From: Promethearchaeota archaeon
GTDB lineage: Archaea > Asgardarchaeota > Lokiarchaeia > Sigyniarchaeales > SOKP01
Assembly (NCBI GenBank): GCA_030603385.1
Contig: JAUVXW010000006.1
Span: 32,001-96,000 of the forward strand
DNA: 64,000 nt
Direction: 5' to 3'
Part shown: in pieces, positions 33,298 through 62,586 of the stretch
Numbering within the stretch: position 1 is the stretch's first letter
Layout: the number at the start of each line of letters is the position of its first letter
Notes under the pieces: generated by a model
The model's input: only the letters and a program-made list of their open reading frames with translations
What the model was told of the DNA's origin: nothing
The model's database searches: none
Position numbers and translations under genes: made by a program

Positions 33298-35274
33298 TTA
33301 ACCACCTCCTAAAAGACCATCAATTTCAGCAAATAATTGATGATCGCGATAATATCTGATATCAATTGCTTGAGTAGGACAACACGTGGCACAAATACCG
33401 CATCCGTCACAATTTATTTCATCAATAAACGCACCGATATCCTTTTCAATCCTAATGGCATTTTTAGGACATTCTTTTTCGCATCGTCTACAAGAAATGC
33501 AGAATTCACTGTCCACCTCAGCAGTAATAAGTTCTATATCGATTTCTCCTGGTGATGTTAACTCAGCAACTTTACTTGCAGCAGCTCTAGCTTGAGAAAC
33601 TGAATAAGAAATATTTTTCGGTCCTTGAGCAAATCCAGCTATAAAAATGCCTTTCGACTTAGTCTCTTGCGGCATTAAACCGAAATGTGATTCTGTTAGA
33701 AAGCCATAAGTGTTAGTATCAAGATTTAAGACTTCTACAATTTGTTGGGTACCTTTTGAAGGGAGTGCTGCTGTGGATAACACAACTAAATCAGCATCAA
33801 TTATTACAATCTTATCTGTTAATGATGAATATACTCGAACTTTCACGTTTTTTGTTTCAGGATCTTCAGAAATTTCACCTACCTTCCCACGAATCATTCT
33901 AATACCAGCGTCTTTAGCTCGTTCATAGTATTCTTCAAATCCTTTTTCAGGAGTTCTTATGTCAATATAACAGATTGTAATGTTCGCATCAGGAAATTCT
34001 TCTAAAAGCAATCGCCCATTCTTTAGAGCAAGCATACAACACACTCCGCTACAATAAGTTCTTTCTGTTTCTCTACTACCAACACATTGAATAAAAACAA
34101 TTTCCTTAGGTTTCTTATTATCTGAAATTCGATGCACATGGCCTTCAAGTGGTCCATTTGGAGCTAATATTCGTTCTAATTGAACTTGAGTTATAACATT
34201 TTCAAATTCTCCATATCCGTATTCACCAAAAGGTTCATGTATGTCCCAACCAGTTGCTATAATGATTGTACCAACCTCGACATTGACTTCTTTGGGTTCT
34301 TGACTAAAATCAATAGCATCCAATTCACAAGCATCTACACACGAAAAACATTCTACACATGCATTTCTATCAATATCATATAGAAACGGCACTGCTTGGT
34401 CAAATGGAATATCTATTGCCCTTCGTGCTCCTAAATTTTCATCGAAATAATTCGTTGTATAAACTGGACAGACTTCAGCGCAAGCACCACACCCATTGCA
34501 TTCATCTGTTGTATATCGCGGTTTTTTCTCAATAGTTACGTTATAATTACCGACATATCCTTCGATATTCTTTACTTCACTATAAGTTAATAATTCAATA
34601 TTATCATTTCTATTAATTTTTAACATCACTGGACCACAGATTCAGATAGCACAGTCATCTGTAGGAAAAGTTCTGTCTAATTGAGACATTCTTCCTCCTA
34701 TCGTAGTCTTAAGTTCTACCAGATACACCTTAATACCTTGATTCGCCAGATCTAGAGCTGCGTTCATACCCCCGATCCCTCCTCCTACAACTAAAGTGGC
34801 TTTAGTGACAGGAACAGTTTTAATAGGAACAGGTTCTAAGCGTTTAGCTCTTTCAATACCACTTTTTACTAAAATTTTCGCTTTTTCTGTAGCTTCTTCT
34901 TTGTTATCAGTACACCATGAACAGTGTTCACGAACATTGACCATTTGAAAGTAATAGGGATTTAAGTCTGTTTTAGCAATTGTACCCCTGTAAATCACTT
35001 CATGAGTTCGAGGGGTTCAAGCCGATGCTACTATTCTATTTAGATTCTTTTCTTTGATATCCTCTATTATCTCATTTTGTGCATTATCAGTTCAAAGAAA
35101 TGCATTCTTCTTTGAGATTATAATTTCATCAGGAAATTCGCTTTTAACATATTCTACTAGTTCATCGCAGTCAACTTTGCTTCTTATGTCTGTATTAAAA
35201 ATTTGAAATAAATTTTTTTTTATACCTCACTGACATGCATAGTATCCAATCCGATGATTTTCATTACTAATCAT
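33298..35274 (-). CDS. hdrA: Selenocysteine-containing canonical-size HdrA (4 Sec), with a putative 30-nt intron at 35190-35219; alternative start 35289
   Basis: One continuous frame joins track ORFs 34642..34998 and 33298..34629. TGA at 35227-29 (ACQ-U-G), 35092-94 (FL-U-T), 35017-19 (SA-U-TPRTHE) and 34642-44 (DDCAI-U-ICGP), each at a Cys position of the paralogs. Confidence 0.92.
35190..35219 (-). other. Putative 30-nt BHB mRNA intron in Sec-hdrA
   Basis: GUAU/AUAC central helix, AAA and AGA bulges, AAAAAUUU/AAAUUUUU intron stem; canonical cuts yield U-G-I-N-I as in the paralog motif CGINI. Confidence 0.65.
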
Positions 35275-35567
35275 TCTTTTTTTACACATCCACCTCGTGC
35301 TTTTACAAAATTGTATATAAATAAATTTCTTAAATGTATATTGGATCATTTTTAAGTTCCAATATAGATCTTTAGGTCACGATCAATATTAAATATTTTT
35401 TTTAATAGTTTATTCATTTTCAATGTTTTTAATACTTACTATTTATCGATATAATCAAATTTTTATGGAACGGTCGCAACATTAAAACATTTTTAACCAG
35501 ATTGAAAGTTTTTGGTTATTTAATTTTGGAAAGTGTTAAAGAAAGTTGGGTTTATGATCGATCTTAA

Positions 35568-35750
35568 ACATTTTCGGGTCAACGATGGATCGAGGTTGGA
35601 CCAGAAGAAGGTCCCTGGACTCTTGCTCCCCCTCTCCTACAGTTTTCAATGTTCACCTATGATATTATAATTGAAATGGGGCTTTTTACGATGTGCTTTC
35701 TAGCAATTCCTCATTTTTTGAAATTGATAAAGTCTGAAAAACAAGATTAA
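35568..35750 (+). pseudogene. Start-less 3' fragment of a membrane-protein gene
   Basis: Open frame TFSGQRWIEVGPEEGPWTLAPPLLQFSMFTYDIIIEMGLFTMCFLAIPHFLKLIKSEKQD* directly after a TAA; higher GC than flanks. Confidence 0.4.
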
Positions 35751-35852
35751 CTCCCTTTTTTTTTATAATTTTTGTTGATCTCCTATAATATTAAAATATT
35801 ATATCTCCAACTAATATCCTTAATTAAAAAAATTGATAAAACGAGAGAATTT

Positions 35853-36839
35853 CTAAATTAGATTCTTAATAATATCATTATTTAAATATTCTTTATAATA
35901 GTGGGATTTATTTAACAGGTATTTTCGCGCAAAAGGCCTAACCATCATCATGAATAATCGAGAAATTGCTACTTTTTTTCTCACAGCATTGAAATAATCA
36001 TCAATTGTATGTTGTTGATATTGTAGAAGCTTTTGACTTTTATCTGTTGTCATGAATCCACAATGAAAACCTTTTGTACTAAATGCTTCAGGAGGCAACT
36101 CTTCGGTTCCAATTCCAAAAATGTCTAACATCTCTCTAAGATATTCTCTATATGAAATTCGACACCTTGATCCACCTGCGATATGTAATATTTCACTCCA
36201 AATTTCTTCGTTTTCGACTGCATTAGCTAAAGCAAAACCAACATCTTTAGTATCACAGATTTCAATACACGTATTTAAGGGCATTTCAAACATAAGCGGA
36301 TCCATTTGAAGTTTATTGATAGATACGATATAGGTTAAACGACATATTACCCACTCTAATCCTGAGTTTTTAATAAGTTCTTCACACTTTACTTTTTGTT
36401 TAGCATACTCATCATCATCATTAGGATTAAGCGGATCAGTTGTTCGAATTAATGGATTTTTAGTTCTGTCACCATATATTGCTACTGAAGAGGTGAATAT
36501 GAGTTTTGGTTTTTGTAGTTGTTTCTTCATAGCTTCGATGATATTTGAGGTTCCCCCAACATTTACGGCTTCAGCAAATCTAGGTTTTCTATCAGCAAGT
36601 GGAGGTATTATAGCAGCCACATGAATAATAACATCACAACCATAAACTGCCATCTCTACATCTTTAGGGTTTCTTAAATCCCCCCACATTATTTCTACCT
36701 GATCTTTAAACTTTTTTGCATTACGACGATTTTGTTTATTTTTTATATCAAAAACTCTTACATCATAGTTTCTTTTAATTAATTCTTTCAATGTACTTAA
36801 TCCAACATTACCAAAAGCTCCTGTTAATAATACTTTCAA
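35853..36839 (-). CDS. NAD-dependent epimerase/dehydratase (extended SDR)
   Basis: TGAFGNVG, HVAA, TSSVAIYG, YAKQK. Confidence 0.9.
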   Translation of the reverse strand: MKVLLTGAFGNVGLSTLKELIKRNYDVRVFDIKNKQNRRNAKKFKDQVEIMWGDLRNPKDVEMAVYGCDVIIHVAAIIPPLADRKPRFAEAVNVGGTSNIIEAMKKQLQKPKLIFTSSVAIYGDRTKNPLIRTTDPLNPNDDDEYAKQKVKCEELIKNSGLEWVICRLTYIVSINKLQMDPLMFEMPLNTCIEICDTKDVGFALANAVENEEIWSEILHIAGGSRCRISYREYLREMLDIFGIGTEELPPEAFSTKGFHCGFMTTDKSQKLLQYQQHTIDDYFNAVRKKVAISRLFMMMVRPFARKYLLNKSHYYKEYLNNDIIKNLI

Positions 36840-36873
36840 AAATAATTACACTGATTATATGATTTTTTTAGAG

Positions 36874-36896
36874 GATATATCAGTTCTGGATATATC
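36874..36896. promoter_or_regulatory. Putative operator: two palindromic GATATATC boxes with 15-bp period upstream of the epimerase gene
   Basis: GATATATC at 36874-36881 and 36889-36896; similar arrangement upstream of the PadR gene. Confidence 0.5.
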
Positions 36897-37128
36897 AATT
36901 ACTTAATATATATTTTATAGATATATAAGTGTTTGGGAAAAGAAAGCTATTTTACTGAATTCAAATTTTCATGAAATATATATAAATATATATTATAAAT
37001 CTATTATATAAAATAAGTTGTATTAAGATAGTCTAAAAATTAATATAATCATAACCTTTAAATATATAGTTTTATATACTAGTGATAGGAAATTAAAATA
37101 ATATTAGGGGTGAAATAAAGCAAAAAAA

Positions 37129-37233
37129 ATGAACGCTAAAATGATATATGAGATTTTAATGGGTATCGTTGGAATCTCTGGTCTGGCTTCATTAGGGTTT
37201 GTTATATTAATACTTCTAGGTATAGTGGCCTAG
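37129..37233 (+). CDS. 34-aa single-transmembrane microprotein
   Basis: MNAKMIYEILMGIVGISGLASLGFVILILLGIVA*; GGGGTGA upstream; below the ORF-track cutoff. Confidence 0.5.
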   Translation: MNAKMIYEILMGIVGISGLASLGFVILILLGIVA

Positions 37234-37250
37234 TAATCATTTTGTTTTTA

Positions 37251-37835
37251 TTATTTTCCATCAGCTTTTAAAATCTTAATTCTTTGGTCAATTTCATTTG
37301 TTACATTTTGGAGTTTCTCGACAATTTTTGATATAACCATTTTTCGTTTGGAGAGAATTTCGAATTTTTCATTTTTAGTTTTACCAACAAGACTTGTATC
37401 TTCAAGTAATTCAGGACCAAACAAACTTTCAAAATCATTCGGAATATTTGAATCAGTAATCCCTATAGTCGACATGATCATAGACAGGAGTGATTTACGC
37501 ATATTTTGTTGTCTTTCAATAATTTTTTTTAAAGTTTTTTCACCTTTCTGCGTAATATCATAAACTTTTCGTTCCCTTTTTCCCTCCATTTCAGTAGTAA
37601 ACTTTATTAAACCTTTTTCTGTCAATGATGATAGATGTGGATATAAAGAGGAAGCAGTTGGATTCCATACTCCATAAGTATCATCTTTTATAATTTGCAT
37701 TAAATTATACCCATGAGATGGACTTTTTTCTAAAGCTAATAATATTAAAGTGCTGATATGCCCCTTTTTCATTGATTGTTCAATCGCATCAGCAATTGCA
37801 TCAATTTTTTCTGAATTTTTCGTTTTTTCACTCAT
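37251..37835 (-). CDS. PadR-family transcriptional regulator
   Basis: LILLALEKSPSHGYNL...SSLYPHL...RERKVYDITQKG. Confidence 0.92.
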   Translation of the reverse strand: MSEKTKNSEKIDAIADAIEQSMKKGHISTLILLALEKSPSHGYNLMQIIKDDTYGVWNPTASSLYPHLSSLTEKGLIKFTTEMEGKRERKVYDITQKGEKTLKKIIERQQNMRKSLLSMIMSTIGITDSNIPNDFESLFGPELLEDTSLVGKTKNEKFEILSKRKMVISKIVEKLQNVTNEIDQRIKILKADGK

Positions 37836-37863
37836 ATCAATGCTACCATGATTAATAAAGAGA

Positions 37864-37886
37864 CAAATATCAAATATAGATATATC
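37864..37886. promoter_or_regulatory. Putative PadR autoregulatory site (CAAATATC plus GATATATC, 15-bp period)
   Basis: Matches the box pair at 36874-36896. Confidence 0.45.
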
Positions 37887-37998
37887 AAATTACGGAATAA
37901 ATATTAATATTTAGAGTTTTTGTAGAAATAATTGAAATGGCAAAAATAAGGGTTTCTTAAAAGAATTCTCATTTCATCTTAGGTTTAATTCAGGTTTT

Positions 37999-38011
37999 AA
38001 AAAAAAAAAAA
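37999..38011 (-). terminator. Oligo-U terminator (13 T on the minus strand)
   Basis: A13 run directly after the stop of 38012..39376. Confidence 0.5.
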
Positions 38012-39376
38012 TTATTTTAATCTTTTTCTAATTAAAATTATTGATGCTATTGCTATAATTCCAATTATCACTATTGTCGTAGTAGTAATAATAATTAGTA
38101 AATTATCTCCAGAACCAGTGGGAACTGTTAAGCCCAACATATTAAAATACCAATAATTCTCACTTGTTGTTTGACGGATCCTATCATTTAATTGAGAGTA
38201 AACCCAGTATTTTGTATTTAGAAATGACATTGTGCCATACCCTCCAACAATAATACCCAAATCAGCATCTGAGTCATAATGTTCGAGTTCGCTTTTAGGT
38301 ATTCTAATTTCATACATTCGATGATCTGATGCGTTGTTAAAGCTAGGCCCAAATCCCCATTCGATTTGGTAATCACTAATTGAAGAATAGGGGTTCGTAA
38401 ACGCGCTCCCAAAATTATTCTCATCTAAGTGGAAAATTCCAAAACTCATATGGTGTAACTGAATCTTAAAAGGATTGCTATGGTTTGCTAACAAACTAAA
38501 CTGCATTTTGTGATCCGATGTGAAATTTCCAGCTAAAAAAGTATTATACTCATTTACAAGTAAAGTACTAAGTAAAAATGTTTGATCTGGATCATTCCTG
38601 TTCATAGTCCCATTGTTATACCATAGAACTACTTCATAATTTGAAATGGTTGTGTTTACAATTCCAAAGGTATTAAGGTTCACTTTTATCGTGGCATTAG
38701 CATAAAGTTCCTGGAAATAAGAGAAATAGTCCTTTATATCAATTGAAAAGTCAACTTGTACTAAATAGTTCGTATTATTTTTGACTGAGGTTATGTTAAA
38801 AGTCGGTTGCCCCGCAGATTGATCTAAAAGAGTATAATTACCTTCAACTGAACCATAAACTGCATTATATTGGCTATCGCTATTAGGAAAAACACCCCAT
38901 CCAATTGAACTTACATTTAAGAAATAAGGTAATGGTACATCATTTTCAACATCATGTATAAAAGATTCTGCCCCATCATCGAGATAGCTTACCCATGTCG
39001 AAAGTTCAGTAAATGTTCTATTGTTGGTATTTAACCAAGCTCCAACCCATTCACCAGTAATGTCTCCGGTTTTATCACTGCAAAGATCGAGTCCAACAAA
39101 AATATTATTTGCATCTTCGCCTAAATACAGATAATTCATTCCATCGGTATCTGGCGGATTGCCTACGTCGTCTATGTCTAAATAAAATCCAACCTTCCAA
39201 TCTGCATCTGACCATTCACTCTCTTGGATTACACCATCCATAACCATATTTTTCATTGGAGCTGTATCACTAATTTTAGGCATATCGGTACGATATACGA
39301 TAGAAAAACCGCCAAGGATGGACAAATTAAGTAAGATTAACGGTATTATTAAACCAATAAATTTTTTATTTAACAT
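38012..39376 (-). CDS. Secreted, C-terminally anchored surface protein with CBM9/DOMON-like domain
   Basis: Signal peptide; MDGVIQESEW...YLYLGED...HRMYEIRIPKSEL; many N-x-S/T sequons; C-terminal TM plus RKRLK. Confidence 0.7.
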   Translation of the reverse strand: MLNKKFIGLIIPLILLNLSILGGFSIVYRTDMPKISDTAPMKNMVMDGVIQESEWSDADWKVGFYLDIDDVGNPPDTDGMNYLYLGEDANNIFVGLDLCSDKTGDITGEWVGAWLNTNNRTFTELSTWVSYLDDGAESFIHDVENDVPLPYFLNVSSIGWGVFPNSDSQYNAVYGSVEGNYTLLDQSAGQPTFNITSVKNNTNYLVQVDFSIDIKDYFSYFQELYANATIKVNLNTFGIVNTTISNYEVVLWYNNGTMNRNDPDQTFLLSTLLVNEYNTFLAGNFTSDHKMQFSLLANHSNPFKIQLHHMSFGIFHLDENNFGSAFTNPYSSISDYQIEWGFGPSFNNASDHRMYEIRIPKSELEHYDSDADLGIIVGGYGTMSFLNTKYWVYSQLNDRIRQTTSENYWYFNMLGLTVPTGSGDNLLIIITTTTIVIIGIIAIASIILIRKRLK

Positions 39377-39458
39377 TTTTAAACAATAGATATTTAAGAA
39401 ATTTGTTATACCCTAAAATCAATTGTTATTATTAATAGTTTTCGGCATAATAGTCTCG

Positions 39459-39575
39459 TTAGTACTTGTTCAAAAGCGAAGATAATAATTCTCTTATATT
39501 GAGGTTTGTTACAAAATTGTAAAATCTTGTTCTTGCATTATTGATTGATTGACGAATTGATATAATGAGTTTCAT
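39459..39575 (-). pseudogene. Truncated copy of the DUF998 gene 5' end (38-aa ORF)
   Basis: MKLIISIRQSINNARTRFYNFVTNLNIRELLSSLLNKY* versus MKLTMSIRQSINNARARFYNFVTNLNIVKY... Confidence 0.7.
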
Positions 39576-39660
39576 TTTTGATTTTTATTGATAAATAAAA
39601 TGAGAGTGTTAAAAAGCGATTAAATTAAAAAATTTAGTAGATCCGTTAATTTATAACTAG
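39496..39660. repeat. Dispersed direct duplicate (about 165 bp) of 40360..40533: upstream region plus first 27 codons of the DUF998 gene
   Basis: Near-identical ATATTGAGGTTTGTTACAAAATTGTAAAATCTTG... and ...AATTTAGTAGATCCGTTAATTTATAACTAG blocks in both copies. Confidence 0.9.
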
Positions 39661-39701
39661 ATTACATTATTAGATACTGAGATATTTTGCTTAACTCTGT
39701 T

Positions 39702-40439
39702 TTATCTTGGGATTAACTCTGGTTTTAACAAAACCACTAGCGAAATGGGGATTATCCAGACTAAAATTGAGAAGAGTAACATCCATTCTAATAATGGGGT
39801 GCTATCAATTAGATTTAAAATAGAAACGATCAATGGCCCAAAAATTCCATAGATTCCAAGAAGTTTTGGGATCTTAGTATCATATAAAACAATTAACCAG
39901 CCCATAAAGAAAGCACCAAAAGTAAATCCACCAAAAGCTAAATATGACATAATGCCATGCGGTCCTTCTCCTAAAATGGATAAGAATTCGTAATCGCGGT
40001 CAGCAGAAAAGATCCCCACACCAATATACCCGAGATTACCAATTATGCTAAATAAGAAAGCAAAACTGCTTAGTCGAAAACGTAATCGAGAGTAATGTTG
40101 CTCTCTCAATTTTGTTCTCTCTGGCAATGGAGCAAGTAATTTTTCTAGATAGAAAGTGAGTGGAATAGTCATAGATCCTGCAACAATACATGCAATATCA
40201 TATAAAAATGGAACTGGAGTGTGGTTATGTGCCCCAAGATCAGAAATCCAGTTATCCCAAATAGTGTATCCGTCTGGATCAAACAATGCTGCAATGATAA
40301 CACCAATTATAAGCAAAGAGATATACCCCATCATAACAATAATTGCAGAGTATTTCACGATATTGAGGTTTGTTACAAAATTGTAAAATCTTGCTCTTGC
40401 ATTATTGATTGATTGACGAATTGACATAGTGAGTTTCAT
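39702..40439 (-). CDS. DUF998-like membrane protein
   Basis: GYTIWDNWISDLG, GVGIFS, H..., LEW; about 6 TM segments. Confidence 0.75.
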   Translation of the reverse strand: MKLTMSIRQSINNARARFYNFVTNLNIVKYSAIIVMMGYISLLIIGVIIAALFDPDGYTIWDNWISDLGAHNHTPVPFLYDIACIVAGSMTIPLTFYLEKLLAPLPERTKLREQHYSRLRFRLSSFAFLFSIIGNLGYIGVGIFSADRDYEFLSILGEGPHGIMSYLAFGGFTFGAFFMGWLIVLYDTKIPKLLGIYGIFGPLIVSILNLIDSTPLLEWMLLFSILVWIIPISLVVLLKPELIPR

Positions 40440-40635
40440 TTTTGATTTTTTTTAAAACTATTGATAAATAAAATAAGGAACCTAAAAAGAGATTTAATTA
40501 AAAAATTTAGTAGATCCGTTAATTTATAACTAGGTTTATGTCGTATTTGGATAAAACTTTTATAGATATATGATCTAATTTGATAATAATCATTGAAAAA
40601 AATAAGTAAATTGTAAATATTCAAAGGCTTATTAA

Positions 40636-42231
40636 ATGGTGAAAACTAAGATCCACCCCCGAGAAATTTTTGAAAGAAGTAAGGAATTTGGGGCAAAAAA
40701 TTCAGCTAGTATGTTAACGGAAATAATAGAATCAGAAGTGGATGGGAATAAAATAAGAGAAGCAATTAAATATTTAGCATTAATAAGCAATAATTCTATA
40801 GAAATTAAAGATCAATGCTTTAGCACTTTTGAAAACCTATTAATTTCTGATGAGAAAGTAGAAATTAAATGTGAAGCGGCAAAGGCTTTAGGTAGAATAA
40901 AACATGAAAAGGGATTAAAACCATTAAAATGGATATTAGAACAAAAAAAAGTTGATAATCAAATAAAATTGTCAGTTTTCAAAGCAATACGGCAAATCCG
41001 ATTTCAAGAACCTGAAGTCCAACTATTTATTAATGAATTAGATAGTAATTTCAATGCAATAAAAGATTTTATTACAATCCAATTATTAAGTCTAAATCCT
41101 GAAGATCTTATAAGTCTATTATTGGATTCGTTAAAGAATAAATACTTTTCAAATGAACATAGAGCCAAATTAGTAAAATTAATTGGATATGAATTATCAA
41201 GTATTAACATTTCTTATGACGATATAAGTTATATAGAAGTAAAATATCCAGAGATTATAACTAATCTAATTCAAAATAAAAACATTTTACTCGATGTCAT
41301 TACACTCATTTTAAGAGAAGAAGATTTAGAATTGTTGAACTCTATTATTACAATCTTAAAATTAATGGGAGAAGAGATTGAGAGCGATTTAATCAAGCTA
41401 TTATTAATCGATGATTTCATTGCTAAGAAGAATGCCATTATTTTAAGTGGGAAATTAAAACTTAAGAATGCTGTAGATCTACTAATAACTAATCTAGACA
41501 ATATTTATAATGAAGTTAGTATCGCATCGATTGAAGCTTTAGGCGAAATTGGGGATATTTCCGCAGTACCTGAGCTTTTAGATATTTTGGACATCGAAGA
41601 TATAAGTTTTGAGTATACAGATTTAGATATGAAGCTTTATATCTTAGATGCGATAAAAAAAATATATTCAAATAACAAAGACGCTTCATTTGATTATTTG
41701 TATTCTTGCCTGAAAAGAGACAATAATACAATACGAGAAAGTGTTGCTTTCATTTTAGGAGAAATAGGTAATAAAGAATTTGTAGAGCCATTAGTTAATT
41801 TGCTAGATATAAGGAATATAGATGTTAGAAAAAATACTATAATTGCTTTAGGAAAAATAGGAAATCTTGCTTCATTAGAAAATTTAATTAGGATCTTAGA
41901 GGATAAAGATTCTTATTGGCTTATTAAAAAAGTGGTTGTTGATGCAATTTATAATATATTTCAAAATAATTGGTATCGGAAAAAAGACGATGAGAAAGAT
42001 GTACAGAGATTATTAAATAAAAACATTGCGGCGCTTATTGACCATTTGGGTAATGAAACAGATGAAAATTTTAAAGTAAAAATAAGCTTAATAAAACTAT
42101 TGGAAACTTATGGAGATAATCATGCTTTAAGCGCACTGATTAAAAGGGTTAACGATTTCCACAGAGTTGTGAGAATTCGTGCATCTAATGCAATAATGAA
42201 AATTGAAGAAAGGCTCGAATTAGAAAATTAA
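40636..42231 (+). CDS. HEAT-repeat protein
   Basis: Repeated AAKALGRI / SIEALGEIGD / VAFILGEIG / TIIALGKIG. Confidence 0.9.
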   Translation: MVKTKIHPREIFERSKEFGAKNSASMLTEIIESEVDGNKIREAIKYLALISNNSIEIKDQCFSTFENLLISDEKVEIKCEAAKALGRIKHEKGLKPLKWILEQKKVDNQIKLSVFKAIRQIRFQEPEVQLFINELDSNFNAIKDFITIQLLSLNPEDLISLLLDSLKNKYFSNEHRAKLVKLIGYELSSINISYDDISYIEVKYPEIITNLIQNKNILLDVITLILREEDLELLNSIITILKLMGEEIESDLIKLLLIDDFIAKKNAIILSGKLKLKNAVDLLITNLDNIYNEVSIASIEALGEIGDISAVPELLDILDIEDISFEYTDLDMKLYILDAIKKIYSNNKDASFDYLYSCLKRDNNTIRESVAFILGEIGNKEFVEPLVNLLDIRNIDVRKNTIIALGKIGNLASLENLIRILEDKDSYWLIKKVVVDAIYNIFQNNWYRKKDDEKDVQRLLNKNIAALIDHLGNETDENFKVKISLIKLLETYGDNHALSALIKRVNDFHRVVRIRASNAIMKIEERLELEN

Positions 42232-43072: not shown

Positions 43073-43100
43073 AAATTAAATAGGTACAATTAGATTTAAT

Positions 43101-52431: not shown

Positions 52432-52435
52432 ATTT

Positions 52436-54619: not shown

Positions 54620-54892
54620 CCCAATCACCTTTTTGAAGAGTTTCCTTTATCTTTATCAGAAATTGGTTAATCTGATTAAAATTAGTTTTTTTAGTTATTT
54701 ATTAATAATAATTTAAATCTAATAAGTTTTTTGAAAGTTACAGTAGAAGTTAATGAATTTATAAAATCAGAAGAGAAAATTTAGATATACTTATAATTGA
54801 TTAACAAATTATATAAAAATCTTGTTAGATACTAAGAATTTGTGAGTTAAAATTTGATTTTCAGATATTTCTAATTGTTTCTTAAAAGTATC

Positions 54893-56035
54893 ATGATTGA
54901 TATAAACACCGCATTAACACTAAAAACAGAATTACTTTGTAAAGGTTTATATCTGGATGAGGGATTAATCGAACATTATAAAGCTCAAGGAATAAATATC
55001 GATTATGGTAGAAAAGGAGGAGCTGGTCCCTCTGGAGGGAGATATTTTTTACTAGAAGATGGAATTACTTTAACAAATGTTGTTCTATGGGATGATCCTA
55101 AAAGAACAGATTTGTTCTTAAAAGAGAATAAAGAAGGCTACTTCCAGGTCTATAATGAAAAAAGAAATGAATTATTTTCTCGATTGAAACTAATCCGAAA
55201 TCCTCGTTTCTATAGTCCTGAATTTAAAACTTCAGATGGAATACCAATGAAAAAAATTGCTTTAGTTCATGGAATCGATTGTCTCGCAAGCACCATCTAT
55301 CAAAAGTGTGTATATTGGGGATGTGGTGAGGCATGCTCATTCTGTGGCATTGAAGTAAGTTTACAAAATGATTCAACTATAATAGAAAAAAATGCCAAAC
55401 AGATGTCAGAAGTCATAGATGCCGCTAAAAAGGAAGGGAGGTGCAATCATATGACTTTAACGAGTGGGACAGATGAAACAATTGATAAGGGTGCAAATAG
55501 ATATATTGAATTACTAAAAGGAGTTAAAAAAAATCATCCTGATCTCCCATTACATATACAAATTGAAGCATTAGAAGATCTGGAGTACATTAACAAATTA
55601 AAAGAAGCTGGAGCAGATACAATTGGCATCCATATTGAAGTTCTTGAAGAGAAGTTAAGAAGAGACATAACTCCTGGAAAATTTCACCTATCTTATCAAC
55701 TTTTTGAAGAAAATTGGAAACATGCAATTAATGTGTTTGGGGATAATCAAGTTAGCAGCTATGTTTTAACCGGCTTTGGAGAAGAAAAAACTAATTTTCT
55801 TGAAGATGTAGAAAAACTTATTTCAGTTGGAGTAATTCCGTATATAACTCCTGTAAGATCTATTCCTGGAAAACGTAAACTTCCCTTAACTGACTGCAAT
55901 GAGTTGTTGGATATATATCAAAGAAGTGCTGACTTGATGAGGGAGTATGGGGTTAATCCATTAAAAAGTAAGGCTGGATGCGTTAGGTGCAGTGGATGTT
56001 CAGCAATTAATGAAGCGTATAAAGCTGTAGTTTGA
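54893..56035 (+). CDS. Radical SAM protein (MSMEG_0568-like)
   Basis: RKGGAGPS, LASTIYQKCVYW...CSFCGI, C-terminal AGCVRCSGCS; track start TTG 54875. Confidence 0.85.
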   Translation: MIDINTALTLKTELLCKGLYLDEGLIEHYKAQGINIDYGRKGGAGPSGGRYFLLEDGITLTNVVLWDDPKRTDLFLKENKEGYFQVYNEKRNELFSRLKLIRNPRFYSPEFKTSDGIPMKKIALVHGIDCLASTIYQKCVYWGCGEACSFCGIEVSLQNDSTIIEKNAKQMSEVIDAAKKEGRCNHMTLTSGTDETIDKGANRYIELLKGVKKNHPDLPLHIQIEALEDLEYINKLKEAGADTIGIHIEVLEEKLRRDITPGKFHLSYQLFEENWKHAINVFGDNQVSSYVLTGFGEEKTNFLEDVEKLISVGVIPYITPVRSIPGKRKLPLTDCNELLDIYQRSADLMREYGVNPLKSKAGCVRCSGCSAINEAYKAVV

Positions 56036-56127
56036 ATTAATTCCTTTTAAAAAATTCACTTAAAATTTAAAATCTTTTTTACGTTTTTAATAAATAAATA
56101 AATTAAATTGTAACTAGTAATCTTACG

Positions 56128-57009
56128 ATGTTGTTAAAAGGAAAGAATATTGTTATTACCGGCGCAGGTAGAGGCATTGGGAGAGCCGTAGCAATAGCAT
56201 GTGCTAAAGAGGGAGCAAATGTTGGATTAACTTCAAGAACGATTGAACAGTTAAATGCCGTGAAAGAGGAAATCGAAGGTTTAGGGACTGATGTAAATTG
56301 TATAATAAAGTCCGCAGATATTACAAGATTAACTGAAGTTTTAGAAACTTTTATGACATTTCATGGTGAACTTGGTCAATTAAATGGTGTAATTGCTAAT
56401 GCTGGAGCATCGTGGCGGGCAAGTGTTCATGAAGTACCTCCAGAGAAATTTGAAATGGTTATTAATACTAATATTTTAGGTGTTTTTTACACTTTTAGAG
56501 CCGCATATCCCTATTTAAAAAGAGACGATAAGAATGATAAAGCAAGGTTCATAATAACCGGAAGTGCCGTTTATCCCTCTGTGATGGGGGGATTTTCCTC
56601 ATATACAGCGTCGAAATATGGGGTCGTAGGATTGCAAAGGGAGTTAGCAACGGAGTATAAAAAAGAAAATATACTTGTAAATATGATACTTCCTATGCAG
56701 GTAGATACAAAACTGTTGAGAGGGAGACGAGCTGGTGATGGGAATAAACCATCAGGTGTACTGAATCCTGAAGATTTGAATGACTATTACTTGTTTGTTC
56801 TATCTTATGAGGCAAATAGAGTAAATGATGAGTTAATCTATCCCAGCAATTTCGAAGCCATGAAAATGATAATAAAGGAAGCACCTGAAGAAAAAAAAGA
56901 AGATTGGGATACATTTAAGGTATTTTTAGAAGAGAAATCTCCAAACTTGTATAACAACGTTAAGAAATATGGAAAGTTAGGTGAATTTATTTTAAATCGT
57001 TCAAAATAA
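56128..57009 (+). CDS. Short-chain dehydrogenase/reductase
   Basis: TGAGRGIG, NAG, YTASK. Confidence 0.92.
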   Translation: MLLKGKNIVITGAGRGIGRAVAIACAKEGANVGLTSRTIEQLNAVKEEIEGLGTDVNCIIKSADITRLTEVLETFMTFHGELGQLNGVIANAGASWRASVHEVPPEKFEMVINTNILGVFYTFRAAYPYLKRDDKNDKARFIITGSAVYPSVMGGFSSYTASKYGVVGLQRELATEYKKENILVNMILPMQVDTKLLRGRRAGDGNKPSGVLNPEDLNDYYLFVLSYEANRVNDELIYPSNFEAMKMIIKEAPEEKKEDWDTFKVFLEEKSPNLYNNVKKYGKLGEFILNRSK

Positions 57010-57038
57010 TTTTCTTAGAAATAATAAAATAAAAATGA

Positions 57039-58343
57039 TTACGTAAAGGGATTTTTATCCTTAAGTATTTTCTGTTGATACTCCATTAAAGGGGGTGGGC
57101 ATAACCCTATTTTAGTTGCTTCTTTCTTAATAGATTTCATAATTTCACCTAAATTTACAGATACAGGACACCAATGGCGGCAATTCTCACAACCAGTACA
57201 CAAGAACAGACCATCTTTTACCGCAGCTTCAATCCCATTGTGAATGTAATCTCGGATAATGCCCTCAGCCCCTAATCCATATTTTGAAGCAAATATATTG
57301 CCAAATGCCCGTGAAGCAGTACATGCATAATTACAAGTTCTACAACCTACACATTTCAGAAAATCTTTATAGATTTTATCTTTCTTCAATGCATTTGTAC
57401 GCCAATCATCCACAAGAATTACAACAACCTCTTTAGCACCATACATCCCAAGGACTCTTTCACCTTGAACATCAGAAGTATTTGAGGGTCCCGCAATAAG
57501 GCTAATATAACTAAATGACACATTATTTATTCTTGTTTGTAGCTTTGCTACAAGTACAGCATCTAAAATAGTGGGTACGATTTTAGTAATTCCACATACG
57601 ACAATGTGCTTTTCAGTTGCTCGCGTTAACAGACTTATATTTCCCTCATTCTCACCAAGTATAATTGTACCATCTTCAGCAGAAATCACATTAGCAGAAG
57701 TTAATGATACTTTTACATCATTAAGTAGTTCTTTACGATAAGTTTCTCGATAATATTTGACAATTGCGCTAGCTTTTGGTTCTAGTTCTACTCCATGAAC
57801 CTCTTTTATTTTTGCAACGATTTCTTCCCTAGTAAAATGAGCACCGGGGCCTATTCCAAAACTAGGTAATTTATAATCAAATAATTGAACAAGAACATCC
57901 CCTAGATCCGTTTCTTTAATCTCAATGTTATTATTTTTTAAAACGTCGATAATTCCAATATCTTTTGCTTCATTTGACTTAGATTTATAGATTACCTTAG
58001 CCTCTCCAATTTCCTTCATAAAAATATCTTGGGCTTCTTCATTAGTTTTTGCCAAATATACTGTCATATTATTTGCTTCGCGCATTACTTTTATACATTT
58101 TTCCACGTAATAATCCATGTTCTGAACGAATTCCTCTTTCATTGCAATAAGTTGATCTCTATACTTTTCAACAAATTCGCGACTACTATCTTCATAAAGG
58201 TATCTTAGATCATGTTGTCGGAATTTTATATTAGATGCAAATTTCCAAAACATTCCGAATTTATTTTCTAGCGTTCCCTCTTTTTGTACAGTATCGATCT
58301 TACTCTTAATTTTTTCATAAAATTCTTTTCCTTTATCACTCAC
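57039..58343 (-). CDS. LutB-like LUD-domain / 4Fe-4S protein (lactate-utilisation type)
   Basis: KSKS, ETDLG, ENEGN, GPSNTSD, CVGCRTC, CTGCENCRHWCP. Confidence 0.85.
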   Translation of the reverse strand: MSDKGKEFYEKIKSKIDTVQKEGTLENKFGMFWKFASNIKFRQHDLRYLYEDSSREFVEKYRDQLIAMKEEFVQNMDYYVEKCIKVMREANNMTVYLAKTNEEAQDIFMKEIGEAKVIYKSKSNEAKDIGIIDVLKNNNIEIKETDLGDVLVQLFDYKLPSFGIGPGAHFTREEIVAKIKEVHGVELEPKASAIVKYYRETYRKELLNDVKVSLTSANVISAEDGTIILGENEGNISLLTRATEKHIVVCGITKIVPTILDAVLVAKLQTRINNVSFSYISLIAGPSNTSDVQGERVLGMYGAKEVVVILVDDWRTNALKKDKIYKDFLKCVGCRTCNYACTASRAFGNIFASKYGLGAEGIIRDYIHNGIEAAVKDGLFLCTGCENCRHWCPVSVNLGEIMKSIKKEATKIGLCPPPLMEYQQKILKDKNPFT

Positions 58344-59076
58344 TTATCGGTTCAACTCCCTCCATTAATTTAGCAATAAAATCCTCAAATTTGATAACGG
58401 GTTTCCTAATATTATTATCCTCTCTAATTCTATTCAATGCTGTATAACAAAAAGGACAAGCTGTTAATAGAGCTTTACCCTTTTTCATATTTTCAAAAAT
58501 TGTCTTTGCATTATAATCGCTATTTTCCTTGAATATTGAATAAACGCCTCCTCCCGCACCACAACATATACTTTTGGTTTTATTATAATCTGATTCTATT
58601 AATTCAATGTTTTCAATTGAATTTAAGATTATTCTTGGCTCTTCAATTATTGGAACAGATGAATTTCTTAGGTGACATGCGTCATGATAATTTACTTTTA
58701 GACTCTTTCCCGAGTATTTTAAATTTAATTTATGTAAATTTTGAGGTTCCGCTAAAAATTGGAGGAAATGCTGTATTTTGACCGTAAATTCAGAACCTAA
58801 AAACTCTTTATAATAACGAGTAAAATAGGAATAACATCCTGCACAAATTGTTACAAGCTCAGTGATATTATTTGTTTTAAACCAATTGTTCACGAATTCA
58901 ACATGTTTTTTCATAATTTCATCTGAAGTCATGTTATATGCTAAAGAACCACAACAAGGAGGATTTTCTATTACTTGATACTCACGATCTAAGAACTGGA
59001 TTATTTTGATTGCATTTTTACAAGTAGAATCATAGAACCGAGTGCTTAAACATCCAAGATAGATAAGTTTACTCAT
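58336..59076 (-). CDS. CCG-domain (Fe-S)-binding protein (LutA/GlcF-like)
   Basis: CCG, CAGC, YHDACH, CCGAGG, ACPFC; overlaps the lutB-like start. Confidence 0.85.
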   Translation of the reverse strand: MSKLIYLGCLSTRFYDSTCKNAIKIIQFLDREYQVIENPPCCGSLAYNMTSDEIMKKHVEFVNNWFKTNNITELVTICAGCYSYFTRYYKEFLGSEFTVKIQHFLQFLAEPQNLHKLNLKYSGKSLKVNYHDACHLRNSSVPIIEEPRIILNSIENIELIESDYNKTKSICCGAGGGVYSIFKENSDYNAKTIFENMKKGKALLTACPFCYTALNRIREDNNIRKPVIKFEDFIAKLMEGVEPISE

Positions 59077-59212
59077 GATTAATTATGATTTTTAATATTT
59101 ATTAATCTTAAATTAGATTGAATAAAATTAAAACCAAATTCTTTTATGAGTCAATAATGATTTTTATAAAGAATCTAGCATTTATCAGAAACAAAAGTTA
59201 CATTAGCTAAAG

Positions 59213-60340
59213 ATGGTTATAGTGTCAAAAACTAAATATTATAAAGATCTCATTGAACGTTTTAATAATTGGATCTTTCGTTTACCCGATTCCAAACAAC
59301 TTATGCCTCTTCTTAAAATAGCGTTTACACCCGAAGAAGCTCAGTTCCTTGCGAAGATTCCTTTTATAGGACATACTGCAGAGCAACTTTCCGAGAAGAT
59401 AGCTATGCCTGTAAAAGAACTTACAGAAAAATTAGAGAGTTTTGCTAGAAAAGGTATTGTCTTTCGCTATGATGATGGATCTACTATTCGTTATTCACTT
59501 TGTGATTCAAATTTTATATTTTATAGATCTATTGGCTGGAAAGGGGAAGATAATAAATTTAATCGAAAGATCTCACCCTACCTAAATCAATATTATATTG
59601 ATGCTTTTGCTATAGAGTTTTTAGACCACCCCACTCAGGGACTCCGAGCAATTCCAATAAATGAAACTATTAAAGATACACGTCAAGTTGTACCATATGA
59701 GGATATCATAAAAGTTGTTGATAATTTCAAATACTATTCTGTATCAAAATGTCCATGCAGTCATAGACATAATCTTGATTCTGATTTTGAAGTATGTGAA
59801 CATGAATTAGAACGGTGCTTACATTTTGATACCCTTGGTAAATATTGCGTAGAAAATGGATTAGGCAGAGAAATTACAAAAGAAGAAACTCTAGAAATAC
59901 TGAAACGAGCTGCTGATGCTGGGTTGGTCCATGGGATTTCAAATACACAGGGTCGAATGGATACTATTTGTAACTGTTGTTCCTGTTGCTGTTTGTACTT
60001 AGAATCAGTAGTAAAGATGCCTGGAATAGTTCCCCGGGGACACCAGCCTTCAAATTATATACGAGAAGCTGATGATGAAAAGTGTACAGGATGTGGTGTT
60101 TGTGTTAGATCGTGTCCGATGAAAGCACTTGAACTTGAAGATAAGAAAGTTATTTTCAATCCAGATAGATGCATAGGCTGTGGTGTATGTGCACATAAAT
60201 GTAAACAAAATGCCAGTTATATGGTACATCGCGATGGAGAACAAGATTTTCCGAAAGATCCTAGAGAACAGGCAATAAGATTTCTCACTGAAAGAGAACT
60301 TGATCCCAACGAAGTTTTTAGAAAGAATTTTTTGGGGTAA
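59213..60340 (+). CDS. 4Fe-4S dicluster protein with N-terminal HTH-like region
   Basis: CPCS, ICNCCSCCC, CTGCGVCVRSCP, CIGCGVCAHKC. Confidence 0.85.
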   Translation: MVIVSKTKYYKDLIERFNNWIFRLPDSKQLMPLLKIAFTPEEAQFLAKIPFIGHTAEQLSEKIAMPVKELTEKLESFARKGIVFRYDDGSTIRYSLCDSNFIFYRSIGWKGEDNKFNRKISPYLNQYYIDAFAIEFLDHPTQGLRAIPINETIKDTRQVVPYEDIIKVVDNFKYYSVSKCPCSHRHNLDSDFEVCEHELERCLHFDTLGKYCVENGLGREITKEETLEILKRAADAGLVHGISNTQGRMDTICNCCSCCCLYLESVVKMPGIVPRGHQPSNYIREADDEKCTGCGVCVRSCPMKALELEDKKVIFNPDRCIGCGVCAHKCKQNASYMVHRDGEQDFPKDPREQAIRFLTERELDPNEVFRKNFLG

Positions 60341-60486
60341 ATTAACTTCCTTTTTATTTCAATGTATTTTATCAATTAGATAATCTTTAAAAAAAATTAA
60401 TATAATTACAAAATCTTATCTATTTGAGATTAATCATTTTTATGTAATTTTATTAAGAATCAAAATACTTCAATAAAACGATTTTT

Positions 60487-62142
60487 ATGGCAGAATTTGA
60501 TAAAATTAAAGAAGATATGGAAGATTGGCAGAATTCTTATCCAACCAAAAAAGAGCGAAGAAAAAGTTTTAAAAATCTTTCTGATATAGAAATTAAACGT
60601 CTCTATACTCCAAATGATGTTAAAGAGCTTAATTATGAACTAGACTTAGGATTTCCCGGACAATATCCTTTTACTCGAGGAGCGTATCCTAATATGTATA
60701 GAGGCCGATTATGGACTATGAGACAATTTGCCGGTTTTGGAACTGCTGAACAGACTAACAACCGCTATAAATTCTTAATCGAACATGGTCAAACTGGATT
60801 AAGCGTTGCTTTTAGTTTGCACACAATTTATGGTATTGAAGCAACCGATCAAAAGGCTTTGGGAGAAATTGGAAAGGAAGGAGTGGCGATTGATACACTG
60901 AAAGATATGGAAACACTTTTTGATGGTATTGATCTATCGAAGATTAGTACATCCATGACTATTAATGCACCAGCGTCTATTTTATTAGCAATGTACATAG
61001 TGACTGCCGAAAAACAAGGCCATTCTCCTGAGCAATTGAGAGGGACTATTCAAAATGATATTTTAAAGGAATATATCGCGCAGAAGTCATGGATATATCC
61101 CCCAGAACCATCGATGCGTTTAATTGTGGACACGATAGAATACTGTACTAACCATGTTCCACAATGGTATACAATCAGTATAAGTGGATATCATATTCGA
61201 GAGGCGGGTTCAACTGCAGTTCAAGAGTTAGCCTTCACTTTGGCTGATGGTTTTGCTTATGTTGAAGCTGCAATCGAAAGAGGTTTGGATGTTGATGATT
61301 TTGCCCCTCGGTTGTCTTTTTTCTTTAATTCTCATAACAACTTCTTCGAAGAAGTATGTAAATATAGGGCTGCTAGAAGGATTTGGGCTAAACATATGAA
61401 AAATAAATACGGAGCAAAAAAGCCAGAATCCTTGAGACTACGATTCCATACTCAAACAGCGGGGGTTTCTTTAACTGCCCAAGAACCTGAAAATAATATG
61501 GTGAGAGTAACACTTCAGGGTTTAGCTGCTGTTTTAGGAGGGACTCAATCATTACACACGAATTCTTTTGATGAAGCTTTATGTCTTCCTACTGAAAATG
61601 CTGTAAAAATAGCATTAAGGACACAGCAAATCATCGCACACGAATCAGGAGTAACTGATACAGTTGATCCCTTAGCTGGATCTTATTATGTGGAATGGCT
61701 TACAAATAAGATGGAAGAAGAAGCTGAGAATTACTTTCAGCAGATTGATGAATTGGGAGGGGTTATTCCTGCAATAAAAGCCAACTTCTTTCAAAAGGAA
61801 ATAGCAAATGCCTCCTATAAATACCAACAAGAAATTGAGAACAGAGAAAGAACAATAGTCGCTGTAAACCAATATCAACAAAAAGAACCATGTACGATCC
61901 CTTTATTGAAAATTGATGAGGAAGTTGCGAAAGAACAGGTGAATACATTAAATAAAATAAAACAGGAACGAGATAACGATAAGATTCAAGAAAATCTATT
62001 AAAATTGAAAGAAGCCGCTAAAGGAACAGAAAACTTAATGCCTTATATTATGGATGCTATCAGAGTTTATGCCTCTATTGGAGAAATTATTAATACATTA
62101 AAAGAAGTATTTGGAGTATATTTTGAAGACTCGATTTTTTAA
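60487..62142 (+). CDS. B12-dependent acyl-CoA mutase large subunit, with isobutyryl-CoA-mutase-like specificity residues
   Basis: PGQYPFTRG, WTMRQFAGFG, GTIQNDILKEYIAQ, ISGYHIREAG, QSLHTNSFDE. Confidence 0.92.
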   Translation: MAEFDKIKEDMEDWQNSYPTKKERRKSFKNLSDIEIKRLYTPNDVKELNYELDLGFPGQYPFTRGAYPNMYRGRLWTMRQFAGFGTAEQTNNRYKFLIEHGQTGLSVAFSLHTIYGIEATDQKALGEIGKEGVAIDTLKDMETLFDGIDLSKISTSMTINAPASILLAMYIVTAEKQGHSPEQLRGTIQNDILKEYIAQKSWIYPPEPSMRLIVDTIEYCTNHVPQWYTISISGYHIREAGSTAVQELAFTLADGFAYVEAAIERGLDVDDFAPRLSFFFNSHNNFFEEVCKYRAARRIWAKHMKNKYGAKKPESLRLRFHTQTAGVSLTAQEPENNMVRVTLQGLAAVLGGTQSLHTNSFDEALCLPTENAVKIALRTQQIIAHESGVTDTVDPLAGSYYVEWLTNKMEEEAENYFQQIDELGGVIPAIKANFFQKEIANASYKYQQEIENRERTIVAVNQYQQKEPCTIPLLKIDEEVAKEQVNTLNKIKQERDNDKIQENLLKLKEAAKGTENLMPYIMDAIRVYASIGEIINTLKEVFGVYFEDSIF

Positions 62143-62156
62143 ATTGGTGAAATTAA

Positions 62157-62586
62157 ATGTCTAAAGATAAAATAATAAAGGTTCTTGTATGTAAGCCTGG
62201 GCTTGACGGGGGTTTTTAGAGCCTCCGGGCTTAACGGGCATGATAGAGGAGCCAAAGTTTTGGCTAGAGCTTTAAGAGATGCGGGAATGGAAGTTATTTA
62301 TACAGGTATCCATCAAACGCCTGATGACATCGTTAATACTGTCATCCAAGAAGATCCTGATGCAGTAATGTTAAGTATATTATCAGGATCTCATAATGCT
62401 CTTTGTCCTATTATTATGCAAAAACTTAAGGAACAAGGTATCGATGATGTCCTTGTAGCTGTTGGAGGTATTATCCCTGATGAAGATAAACCTTTCTTAG
62501 AGGAACAGGGTTTGAAGGGATTTTACGGACCAGGAACTAATTTGAGTACGATTGTTGAATTTGTGAAAAACAACTTAAAAAGATAA
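62157..62586 (+). CDS. Cobalamin-binding small subunit of acyl-CoA mutase, split by a 28-nt intron: join(62157..62205,62234..62586), 133 aa
   Basis: GGTGA RBS (62146-50), ATG 62157. Exon 1 MSKDKIIKVLVCKPGL(D) plus exon 2 GHDRGAKV...SILSGSH...VGGIIP...GPGT. The unspliced frame stops at TAG 62217-19. Confidence 0.88.
62206..62233 (+). other. Putative 28-nt BHB mRNA intron
   Basis: Complete hBHBh': outer helix GCCUG/CGGGC, central helix GGCU/GGCU, bulges UGA and UAA, 9-bp intron hairpin; canonical cuts remove exactly 28 nt and restore the frame and DGHDRG. Confidence 0.82.

What the first reader, a model, noticed from the sequence alone, without database searches (positions are those of the whole stretch)
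35190..62233. Shared logic of the two introns suggests a genome-wide class of BHB mRNA micro-introns
Seen: both inserts are 28-30 nt and lie within about the first 20-25 codons. Both split a codon after its first base, are followed by AC, and sit in a cofactor-ligand motif (the cobalamin DxH loop; the Sec/Fe-S CxUG loop). Two in 64 kb implies more genome-wide, which pipelines would call frameshifted pseudogenes or odd insertions. Inference (speculative): a post-transcriptional control layer over trace-element-dependent enzymes (Co/B12, Se), or a record of BHB introns spreading from tRNAs into mRNAs in the lineage closest to eukaryotes.
Basis: inference. Interest (0 to 1): 0.88.

Follow-up and report, generated by a model that had tools for sequence, protein, structure and literature searches.

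The report
tRNA-type mini-introns in Asgard protein genes
Two protein genes in this stretch of an Asgard (Promethearchaeota) genome are each broken by a ~30-base insert shaped like a tRNA intron, and comparison with a sister species finds more such inserts across the genome, so this relative of eukaryotes probably splices many mRNAs with its tRNA-splicing enzymes.

Summary
Both inserts are real. The 28-nt insert in the B12-binding mutase subunit (62206-62233, +) is a perfect bulge-helix-bulge (BHB). Cutting at the canonical bulge positions restores the frame and the DxHxxG motif. Seven variants from six lineages keep the fold with compensatory changes. The 30-nt in-frame insert in the four-Sec HdrA (35190-35219, -) is found only in this genome among 135 family genomes. 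Its BHB-defined excision reproduces the ortholog sequence exactly, and such a BHB arises by chance about 1 in 10,000 positions.

The predicted genome-wide class exists. A motif-free indel census against a sister species (1.2 Mb aligned) found six more BHB mini-introns here and two in the sister. I also confirmed one in RNase HII. The genome encodes two EndA subunits and RtcB.

- Phases are 3/6/3.
- Exon 2 starts AC in 4 of 12.
- Positions range across genes.
- Hosts include RNA polymerase, proteasome and a Ras GTPase, so there is no link to trace elements.
- Presence or absence flips between sister strains, which argues for selfish or neutral elements rather than regulators.

No RNA evidence was obtained because the read-laying run failed. 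This scan had already flagged this class in this and other Asgard genomes. The searchable literature records only cbf5.

The parts
62157..62205 (+). Exon 1 of the methylmalonyl-CoA mutase small (B12-binding) subunit: 16 codons plus the first base of codon 17
   Evidence: Exon 1 is kept intact and conserved in all intron-bearing relatives.
62206..62233 (+). 28-nt BHB mini-intron. It is not a multiple of three and carries TAG in the exon-1 frame.
   Evidence: Fold. Same site in 5 of 30 genus genomes. Seven variants with 117 of 119 pair cells paired and compensatory changes.
62195..62239 (+). Complete hBHBh' motif: outer helix 62195-99/62235-39, central helix 62200-03/62228-31, bulges 62204-06 and 62232-34, inner stem-loop 62207-62227
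   Evidence: central 4/4, outer 5/5, inner 9
62234..62586 (+). Exon 2 of the B12-binding subunit (PF02310), stop codon included
   Evidence: The spliced product is identical to P0128, which is encoded without interruption on at least 24 public contigs.
35220..35274 (-). Exon 1 of the selenoprotein HdrA: 18 codons plus the first base of codon 19. It holds the first UGA (Sec) at 35227-35229.
35190..35219 (-). 30-nt in-frame, A/T-rich BHB mini-intron. Left unspliced it would add 10 residues inside the CxUGxNI motif.
   Evidence: Absent from 28 orthologs and from 134 other family genomes.
35184..35230 (-). Relaxed BHB: central helix 35225-22/35195-92, bulges 35221-19 and 35191-89, inner stem 35217-10/35204-197, weak outer helix 35230-26/35188-84
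   Evidence: central 4/4, outer 3/5, inner 8 with one mismatch; mirror register 1/4
33298..35189 (-). Exon 2 of HdrA, with three further in-frame TGA codons at Cys positions and Fer4 domains

Best explanation
Both inserts are archaeal bulge-helix-bulge (tRNA-type) mini-introns inside coding sequence.

Proposed mechanism. In the pre-mRNA, each insert and its flanking exon bases fold into two 3-nt bulges separated by a 4-bp helix. The two-subunit splicing endonuclease (EndA alpha/beta) cuts after the second nucleotide of each bulge. RtcB joins the exons. This restores the DxHxxG cobalamin loop of the mutase subunit and the CxUGxNI motif of HdrA.

The wider class. These two belong to a genome-wide population of such introns, 26-39 nt long with a mode of 30, in many unrelated protein genes of this Promethearchaeota genus. 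I estimate tens per genome. They are gained and lost on the time-scale of species and strains. Their behaviour fits neutral or selfish passengers that persist because the host's relaxed-specificity tRNA-splicing machinery removes them, rather than dedicated regulators.

What is shown and what is inferred. Shown: the structures, the exact restoration of ortholog sequence, covariation at the mutase site, the class itself, and the presence of the enzyme genes. Inferred: that excision actually happens in RNA.
For: Mutase intron:
- It is a perfect hBHBh'.
- It lies at the same site in five species of the genus and in further assemblies. There are seven distinct sequences, 117 of 119 pair cells are paired, and 8 of 17 pairs carry two-sided compensatory changes.
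- Its length, 26 or 28 nt, always shifts the frame, yet exon 1 stays intact and conserved.
- Exon codons that form the outer and central helices co-vary with intron presence.

HdrA intron:
- 28 orthologs lack it and read CQUG(I/V)NI.
- The BHB-defined cut gives exactly that sequence.
- The chance of such a BHB is 1e-4 per position.
- Two other species carry different mini-inserts in the same gene, one of them with an in-frame TAA and a clean BHB.

The class:
- The motif-free census against G019 covered 1.56 Mb fetched and 1.20 Mb aligned at 93% identity. It found ORF-restoring indels of 28-32 nt in an epimerase, proteasome alpha (two), a LOR-like gene, a Ras GTPase and RpoA' in this genome, and in NifU and a glutaredoxin-like gene in G019.
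- Flanking exons match contiguous parts of single Pfam domains.
- All 12 sites whose borders are fixed by an intronless allele have the canonical BHB register. Only 2 of 12 fit the mirror register. The null probability per position is 0.02.
- An RNase HII intron carrying TAA is removed exactly by its BHB.

Machinery:
- The genome has two EndA paralogs of about 200 aa and RtcB.
- PMC5829648 reports (alpha-beta)2 EndA with the broad-specificity L1 loop in Asgard.
- Only 18-22 tRNAs are detectable, as expected if tRNA genes are heavily interrupted (PMC11291895; bioRxiv 10.64898/2026.10.13.758758).
Against: - There is no transcript evidence.
- The HdrA insert is in frame, has no stop and has a weak outer helix. 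It occurs in one MAG only, so it has no covariation support and could be translated through.
- BHB descriptor scans alone show no clear excess over controls. ORF-aware counts were 656 real against 578 mirror. The class therefore cannot be counted from structure alone.
- The uL11 break does not fit a canonical BHB by my descriptor.
Confidence: 0.75

Rival explanations
1. HdrA site only: the 30 nt are a recent in-frame DNA insertion that is translated, giving a 10-residue loop, or that cripples this paralog. It is not spliced.
For: The insert is in frame and has no stop. It is a singleton among 135 family genomes and is absent from JGI contigs. The outer helix has only 3 of 5 pairs. The genome holds other HdrA paralogs.
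Against: The insert sits inside an invariant Fe-S/Sec motif. Its borders coincide with a canonical BHB register: central helix 4/4, 3-nt bulges and an 8-bp stem, with a chance rate of 1e-4 per position. The BHB cut gives the ortholog sequence exactly. Eleven other inserts of the same size class in this genus share the register.
Confidence: 0.17
2. The inserts are bypassed during translation, as in T4 gene 60 or the yeast mitochondrial 'byps', rather than removed from the RNA.
For: At the mutase site a CUU codon precedes the insert and another CUU lies near its 3' end. A hop between them would give LNGHDRG, a variant that some intronless orthologs do have.
Against: - In G022 the corresponding landing would give Tyr at the D/N position.
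- HdrA, RNase HII, RpoA' and the others have no matching take-off and landing codons.
- Covariation of the central helix and a fixed 3-4-3 geometry are not needed for hopping.
Confidence: 0.03
3. Splicing of these introns is a regulated control layer for trace-element (B12, Se) enzymes.
For: Both window introns lie in cofactor-ligand motifs near the 5' end. Only spliced mutase mRNA can give an active subunit.
Against: - Other members sit in RpoA', proteasome alpha, RNase HII, a Ras GTPase, an epimerase and a LOR-like gene.
- Sister strains and species with 98-99% identical genes lack the mutase intron.
- The HdrA intron is unique to one genome.
- No metabolite-sensing element is evident in 28-30 nt.
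Confidence: 0.05
4. The interrupted genes are pseudogenes, or the inserts are assembly artefacts.
For: The genome is a MAG of 58 contigs with 7% contamination. The inserts are hairpins.
Against: - The mutase intron allele recurs in independent assemblies from NCBI, ENA and Logan.
- Exons show no decay.
- Interrupted genes include RpoA', proteasome alpha and RNase HII, which are normally essential or single-copy.
- Every insert fits one precise RNA geometry.
Confidence: 0.03

Closest known systems
BHB intron in the cbf5 (pseudouridine synthase) pre-mRNA of Crenarchaeota (Watanabe 2002; Yoshinari 2006; Yokobori 2009, PMC2738675). PMC7714728 and PMC5829648 cite it as the one coding-sequence case.
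   Same: It is a BHB intron inside a protein-coding sequence. The lineage has a hetero-oligomeric (alpha-beta)2 EndA. The intron is gained and lost among relatives.
   Different: Here the introns lie in many unrelated genes per genome rather than one gene. They are uniformly tiny, 26-39 nt. Presence differs between sister species and strains. The lineage is Asgard rather than TACK. Splicing has not yet been shown experimentally.
[quoted passage not shown]
   Same: The 3-4-3 motif, the predicted cut positions and the enzymes (EndA, RtcB) are the same. Gains are frequent, terminal-branch and unexplained. Relaxed motifs are tolerated.
   Different: The host RNA is an mRNA, so excision must be exact to the nucleotide to keep the reading frame. 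I found no sequence similarity to tRNA loci.
HVO_1309 5'-UTR BHB intron of Haloferax volcanii (PMC7714728)
   Same: An mRNA is cut by the tRNA splicing endonuclease.
   Different: That intron lies in the untranslated leader, not in the coding sequence.
Ire1/RtcB splicing of HAC1/XBP1 mRNA in eukaryotes
   Same: Both are non-spliceosomal. A small intron is removed by an endonuclease plus a tRNA ligase, and removal changes the reading frame.
   Different: The nuclease (Ire1) and the recognition motif (twin 7-nt loops) are different. That system is regulated by stress. No Ire1 is expected in archaea, and there is no sign of regulation here.

Membership tests
Archaeal BHB (EndA-type) intron | Two 3-nt bulges on opposite strands separated by a 4-bp helix and flanked by helices | tested here: met
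   The mutase site is perfect: central 4/4, outer 5/5, inner 9. The HdrA site has central 4/4 and both 3-nt bulges, with inner 8 and a weak outer helix of 3/5, i.e. a relaxed form.
Archaeal BHB (EndA-type) intron | Cutting after bulge nucleotide 2 on both strands yields a functional joined RNA | tested here: met
   The joined frames equal the intronless orthologs...GLDGHDRG... and CQUGINIRSK.
Archaeal BHB (EndA-type) intron | Structure maintained by compensatory substitutions among relatives | tested here: met
   Mutase site: seven variants with two-sided changes at 8 of 17 pairs. The HdrA site is a singleton and cannot be tested this way.
Archaeal BHB (EndA-type) intron | Host encodes the splicing endonuclease and the RtcB ligase | tested here: met
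   PF01974 matches twice, at C44 and C9, each an ORF of about 200 aa. PF01139 matches once at 558 bits.
Archaeal BHB (EndA-type) intron | Intron is physically excised from the transcript | not testable with these tools
The best RNA runs held only 0.26-0.28 of the words.
Programmed translational bypass (gene 60 / byps) | Matching take-off and landing codons flank the skipped stretch | tested here: not met
   A partial match at the mutase site only. There is none at HdrA, RNase HII or RpoA', and it is inconsistent in G022.
Spliceosomal or group I/II intron | GT-AG borders, or a ribozyme core of hundreds of nucleotides | tested here: not met
   The inserts are 28 and 30 nt. Their borders are A...A and A...G.
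Repeated mobile element (MITE-like) | Multiple similar copies in the genome | tested here: not met
   Each of nine intron sequences matches only itself in the 3.9-Mb assembly.

The most novel reading that the evidence does not exclude
Promethearchaeota (Asgard) genomes carry a dynamic population of tens of EndA/RtcB-spliced mini-introns in ordinary protein-coding genes, including RNA polymerase, the proteasome, GTPases and metabolic enzymes. These introns are gained and lost between sister species. On this reading, routine mRNA splicing, by a non-spliceosomal route, already exists in the archaeal lineage nearest to eukaryotes, and standard annotation systematically mis-calls the genes concerned.
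Probability: 0.72. Interest if true: 0.88.

Novelty: new variant of a known kind. Interest (0 to 1): 0.8.

Why it matters
The papers I could search record protein-coding BHB introns for one gene only (cbf5). If confirmed, this class has several consequences.
- mRNA splicing would be commonplace in an Asgard lineage.
- It would offer a tractable system for studying intron gain and loss, because there are presence/absence alleles at 98% identity.
- It would explain 'frameshifted' or oddly started genes in Asgard MAG annotations, for example the public proteins that begin with intron-derived residues.
- Metabolic reconstructions would need correcting. The B12 mutase and the Sec-HdrA are probably functional, not pseudogenes.
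- It would constrain ideas on whether intron tolerance preceded the spliceosome.

Tried and rejected
1. RNA evidence. The look-up of sequencing runs listed five RNA runs with small shares.

2. Genome-wide BHB descriptor scans, strict and relaxed.
- I later realised that a mirror-image control counted on both strands is degenerate, because a real BHB on one strand is a mirror BHB on the other. Those bulk comparisons say nothing.
- The ORF-aware versions remain valid and show at most a weak excess: 656 against 578, and 1084 against 983.
- The top strict hits other than the mutase site were false positives, for example a FeoB segment and an HdrA paralog.
- Structure alone cannot enumerate the class. 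The indel census replaced this approach.

3. Searches for the HdrA intron elsewhere. Two JGI metagenome pattern scans and 135 family genomes returned only this genome.

4. Similarity of introns to each other, to tRNA loci or to repeats. None was found.

5. uL11. I confirmed a frameshift between the VTGG and ASGGPP segments, but no canonical BHB fits my descriptor.

6. First pass of the census. A rotation bug and the both-strand mirror hid true sites. Both were corrected.

7. Origin by tandem duplication. The mutase site shows an imperfect direct repeat across the two splice sites, and the first proteasome intron shows a 9-nt repeat. Most of this follows from palindromic central helices, and the other sites lack it.
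Full report
**What is there**

The window is A/T-rich (about 31% G+C). It lies on contig C26 of a 3.9-Mb, 58-contig MAG. Homologs of its proteins are labelled Promethearchaeota, i.e. Asgard.

At 62157 an ATG opens the small, B12-binding subunit of methylmalonyl-CoA mutase, between the large subunit and meaB. After 16 codons the frame runs into TAG, and the conserved HDRGAK... continues in another frame.

On the minus strand, an HdrA gene starts at 35274. It has four in-frame TGA codons at Cys positions. It carries ten extra codons inside the N-terminal CxUGxNI motif.

**Mutase site**

- The stretch 62195-62245 folds into a textbook hBHBh'. It has a 5-bp outer helix, a 4-bp central helix, two 3-nt bulges on opposite strands and a 9-bp inner stem. 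The z-score is -3.5, and none of 200 shuffles folds as well.
- Cutting after the second nucleotide of each bulge removes 62206-62233 (28 nt). It joins G|AC, which gives ...KPGLDGHDRG... and restores DxHxxG.
- Among 30 orthologous loci from the genus, 25 are uninterrupted and read exactly this motif. They include G019, which is 99% identical in protein. Five, this genome included, carry an insert at the same nucleotide, 26 or 28 nt long.
- Further assemblies supply more copies.
- Across seven distinct intron sequences, 117 of 119 helix cells pair. Eight of 17 pairs show two-sided compensatory changes, including one in the central helix.
- Exon codons that build the helices co-vary with intron presence.
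- Public databases hold gene calls that begin inside the intron and so have a spurious N-terminus (P0001, P0132, P0134).
- On a tree of the flanking 2.3 kb, the six carriers need six changes. Each has a well-supported intronless sister.
- The closest sister of this genome's allele is a metagenome contig at 97.9% identity (L167). It lacks the intron yet keeps the intron-type exon codons.

**HdrA site**

- Twenty-eight orthologs in the genus are collinear, and those inspected at the site all read CQUG(I/V)NI(R/K).
- This genome alone has the 30 nt. A degenerate pattern search found no other copy in 135 genomes of the family, and two pattern scans found none in JGI metagenome contigs.
- The insert and its flanks give a central helix of 4/4, both 3-nt bulges and an 8-bp A-U stem after one mismatch. 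The outer helix is weak at 3 of 5 pairs.
- The BHB-defined cut (35219-35190) joins A|AC and yields CQUGINIRSK, identical to the ortholog consensus.
- A BHB of this grade occurs at 1.05e-4 of random positions in this genome. Only two equivalent registers are allowed.
- The same gene carries different mini-inserts in two other species. G020 has 39 nt with an in-frame TAA and a clean BHB. G024 has a 34-nt frameshifting insert.

**Is there a class?**

BHB descriptors alone could not answer this. The background is in the hundreds to thousands, and my first mirror control was degenerate.

I therefore ran a motif-free census.
- I fetched 1.56 Mb of the sister species G019 and aligned it to this genome. 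1.20 Mb aligned at 93% identity.
- I listed indels of 18-60 nt, which gave 72 events.
- Indels of 28-32 nt whose removal restores a long ORF were found here in an NAD-epimerase, proteasome alpha (two), a LOR-like gene, a Ras-family GTPase and RpoA'. The RpoA' insert has TGA inside it.
- In G019 they were found in a NifU-like and a glutaredoxin-like gene.
- Exon-by-exon Pfam searches show that the pieces are contiguous parts of one domain.
- Separately, the only RNase HII gene has a 30-nt insert with TAA. Its BHB excision restores GIDEAGRGP.
- For 12 sites whose borders are fixed by an intronless allele, all 12 fit the canonical register, with the central helix at 3/4 or better and at 4/4 in nine. 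Only 2 of 12 fit the mirror register. The null probability is 0.02 per position.
- The census is a lower bound, because it missed the mutase site itself. It implies roughly 20 or more introns here that G019 lacks, plus any the two genomes share.

**Machinery**

- The genome has two EndA paralogs of about 200 aa and one RtcB.
- PMC5829648 reports that Asgard archaea have the (alpha-beta)2 EndA with the L1 loop associated with broad substrate range.
- Only 18 tRNAs (aragorn) or 22 (Rfam model) are detectable in a genome that is 94% complete. This fits the heavy, often undetected interruption of Asgard tRNA genes reported in PMC11291895 and in bioRxiv 10.64898/2026.10.13.758758.

**The 'shared logic'**

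- Over 12 sites the lengths are 28-39 nt with a mode of 30. Mutase variants of 26 nt extend the range.
- Phases are 0:3, 1:6, 2:3.
- The first intron base is A in 9 of 12. Exon 2 begins with A in 7 of 12 and with AC in only 4 of 12.
- Relative positions run from 0.03 to 0.66 of the gene.
- Five of 12 lie in the first 15% of the gene. This hints at a 5' bias, but the census subset alone does not show it.
- Many introns sit in very conserved motifs: DxH, the P-loop, DEAGRG, near the SDR catalytic Tyr, and the NifU DGGD. A possible reading is the one used for inteins and homing introns. Conserved sites would keep the exon half of the helix stable and would make imprecise loss lethal. This is inference.
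- Nothing links the class to Co or Se. The strain-level presence and absence argues against a conserved regulatory role.
- Each intron sequence is unique in the genome, so there is no sign of a copy-and-paste repeat family. How they arrive remains open.

**Literature and earlier notes**

- Full-text searches found BHB introns in archaeal coding sequence only for cbf5, plus a 5'-UTR case in Haloferax. None mentions Asgard mRNA introns.
- This scan's earlier notes had already flagged the same class in this genome (uL11, a histone, moxR, RNase HII, proteasome alpha, uvrB, rpoA', AMP phosphorylase) and in other Asgard and DPANN genomes.
- I treated these notes as leads. I re-derived RNase HII, proteasome alpha and rpoA' independently.

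**Limits**

- No RNA was examined.
- The HdrA intron rests on one assembly.
- The tree covers one locus, and recombination could blur it.

Noticed in passing
window 32833-35274 (-): HdrA has four in-frame TGA codons, all at conserved Cys positions. The adjacent MvhD-like gene has two more. Orthologs across the genus keep them (CQUG, FLUTD, SAUTPR), so these are multi-Sec selenoproteins that gene callers split.
   Followed up: partly
window ~50856 (C26:82856); L144:16143-16172: The sister species G019 has a 30-nt BHB intron in its NifU-like gene, splitting ...LQMD|GGDVE.... The ortholog in this window is uninterrupted.
   Followed up: partly
L056:967-1005 (G020) and L059 (G024), HdrA orthologs: Two other species carry different mini-inserts in the same HdrA. 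One is 39 nt with TAA at FQMVN|VREH and has a clean BHB. The other is a 34-nt frameshifting insert at REHC|SW whose structure I did not resolve.
   Followed up: partly
window 62189-62239 (+): The exon segment coding K-P-G-L is a near-perfect 12-nt palindrome in intron-bearing alleles. The region around the 5' splice site is repeated imperfectly around the 3' splice site over about 14-17 nt. This may reflect helix symmetry or an origin by local duplication.
   Followed up: no
G000 whole genome: Only 18 (aragorn) to 22 (Rfam) tRNA genes are detectable in a 94%-complete genome, and seven of the 18 have called introns. Many tRNA genes are probably interrupted at non-canonical sites and so are missed.
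   Followed up: no
G000 C41:~68100-68140 (-): The only uL11 gene changes frame between the ...VTGG and ASGGPPIGP... segments. The gap is about 37 nt, and no canonical BHB fits my descriptor. It may be a relaxed (bulge-helix-loop) motif.
   Followed up: partly
Public proteins P0001, P0132, P0134 (NCBI, ENA, Logan): Database entries annotated as 'cobalamin B12-binding domain protein' start with about 14 residues translated from the intron and lack the first beta-strand. This is a systematic mis-annotation caused by the mini-intron.
   Followed up: yes
G000 C34:161860-161883: A 24-nt stretch holding a stop, a GGTGA ribosome-binding site and a start separates two ORFs here. It is missing in G019, where the two ORFs would be read as one. 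It has no BHB and is not an intron.
   Followed up: no
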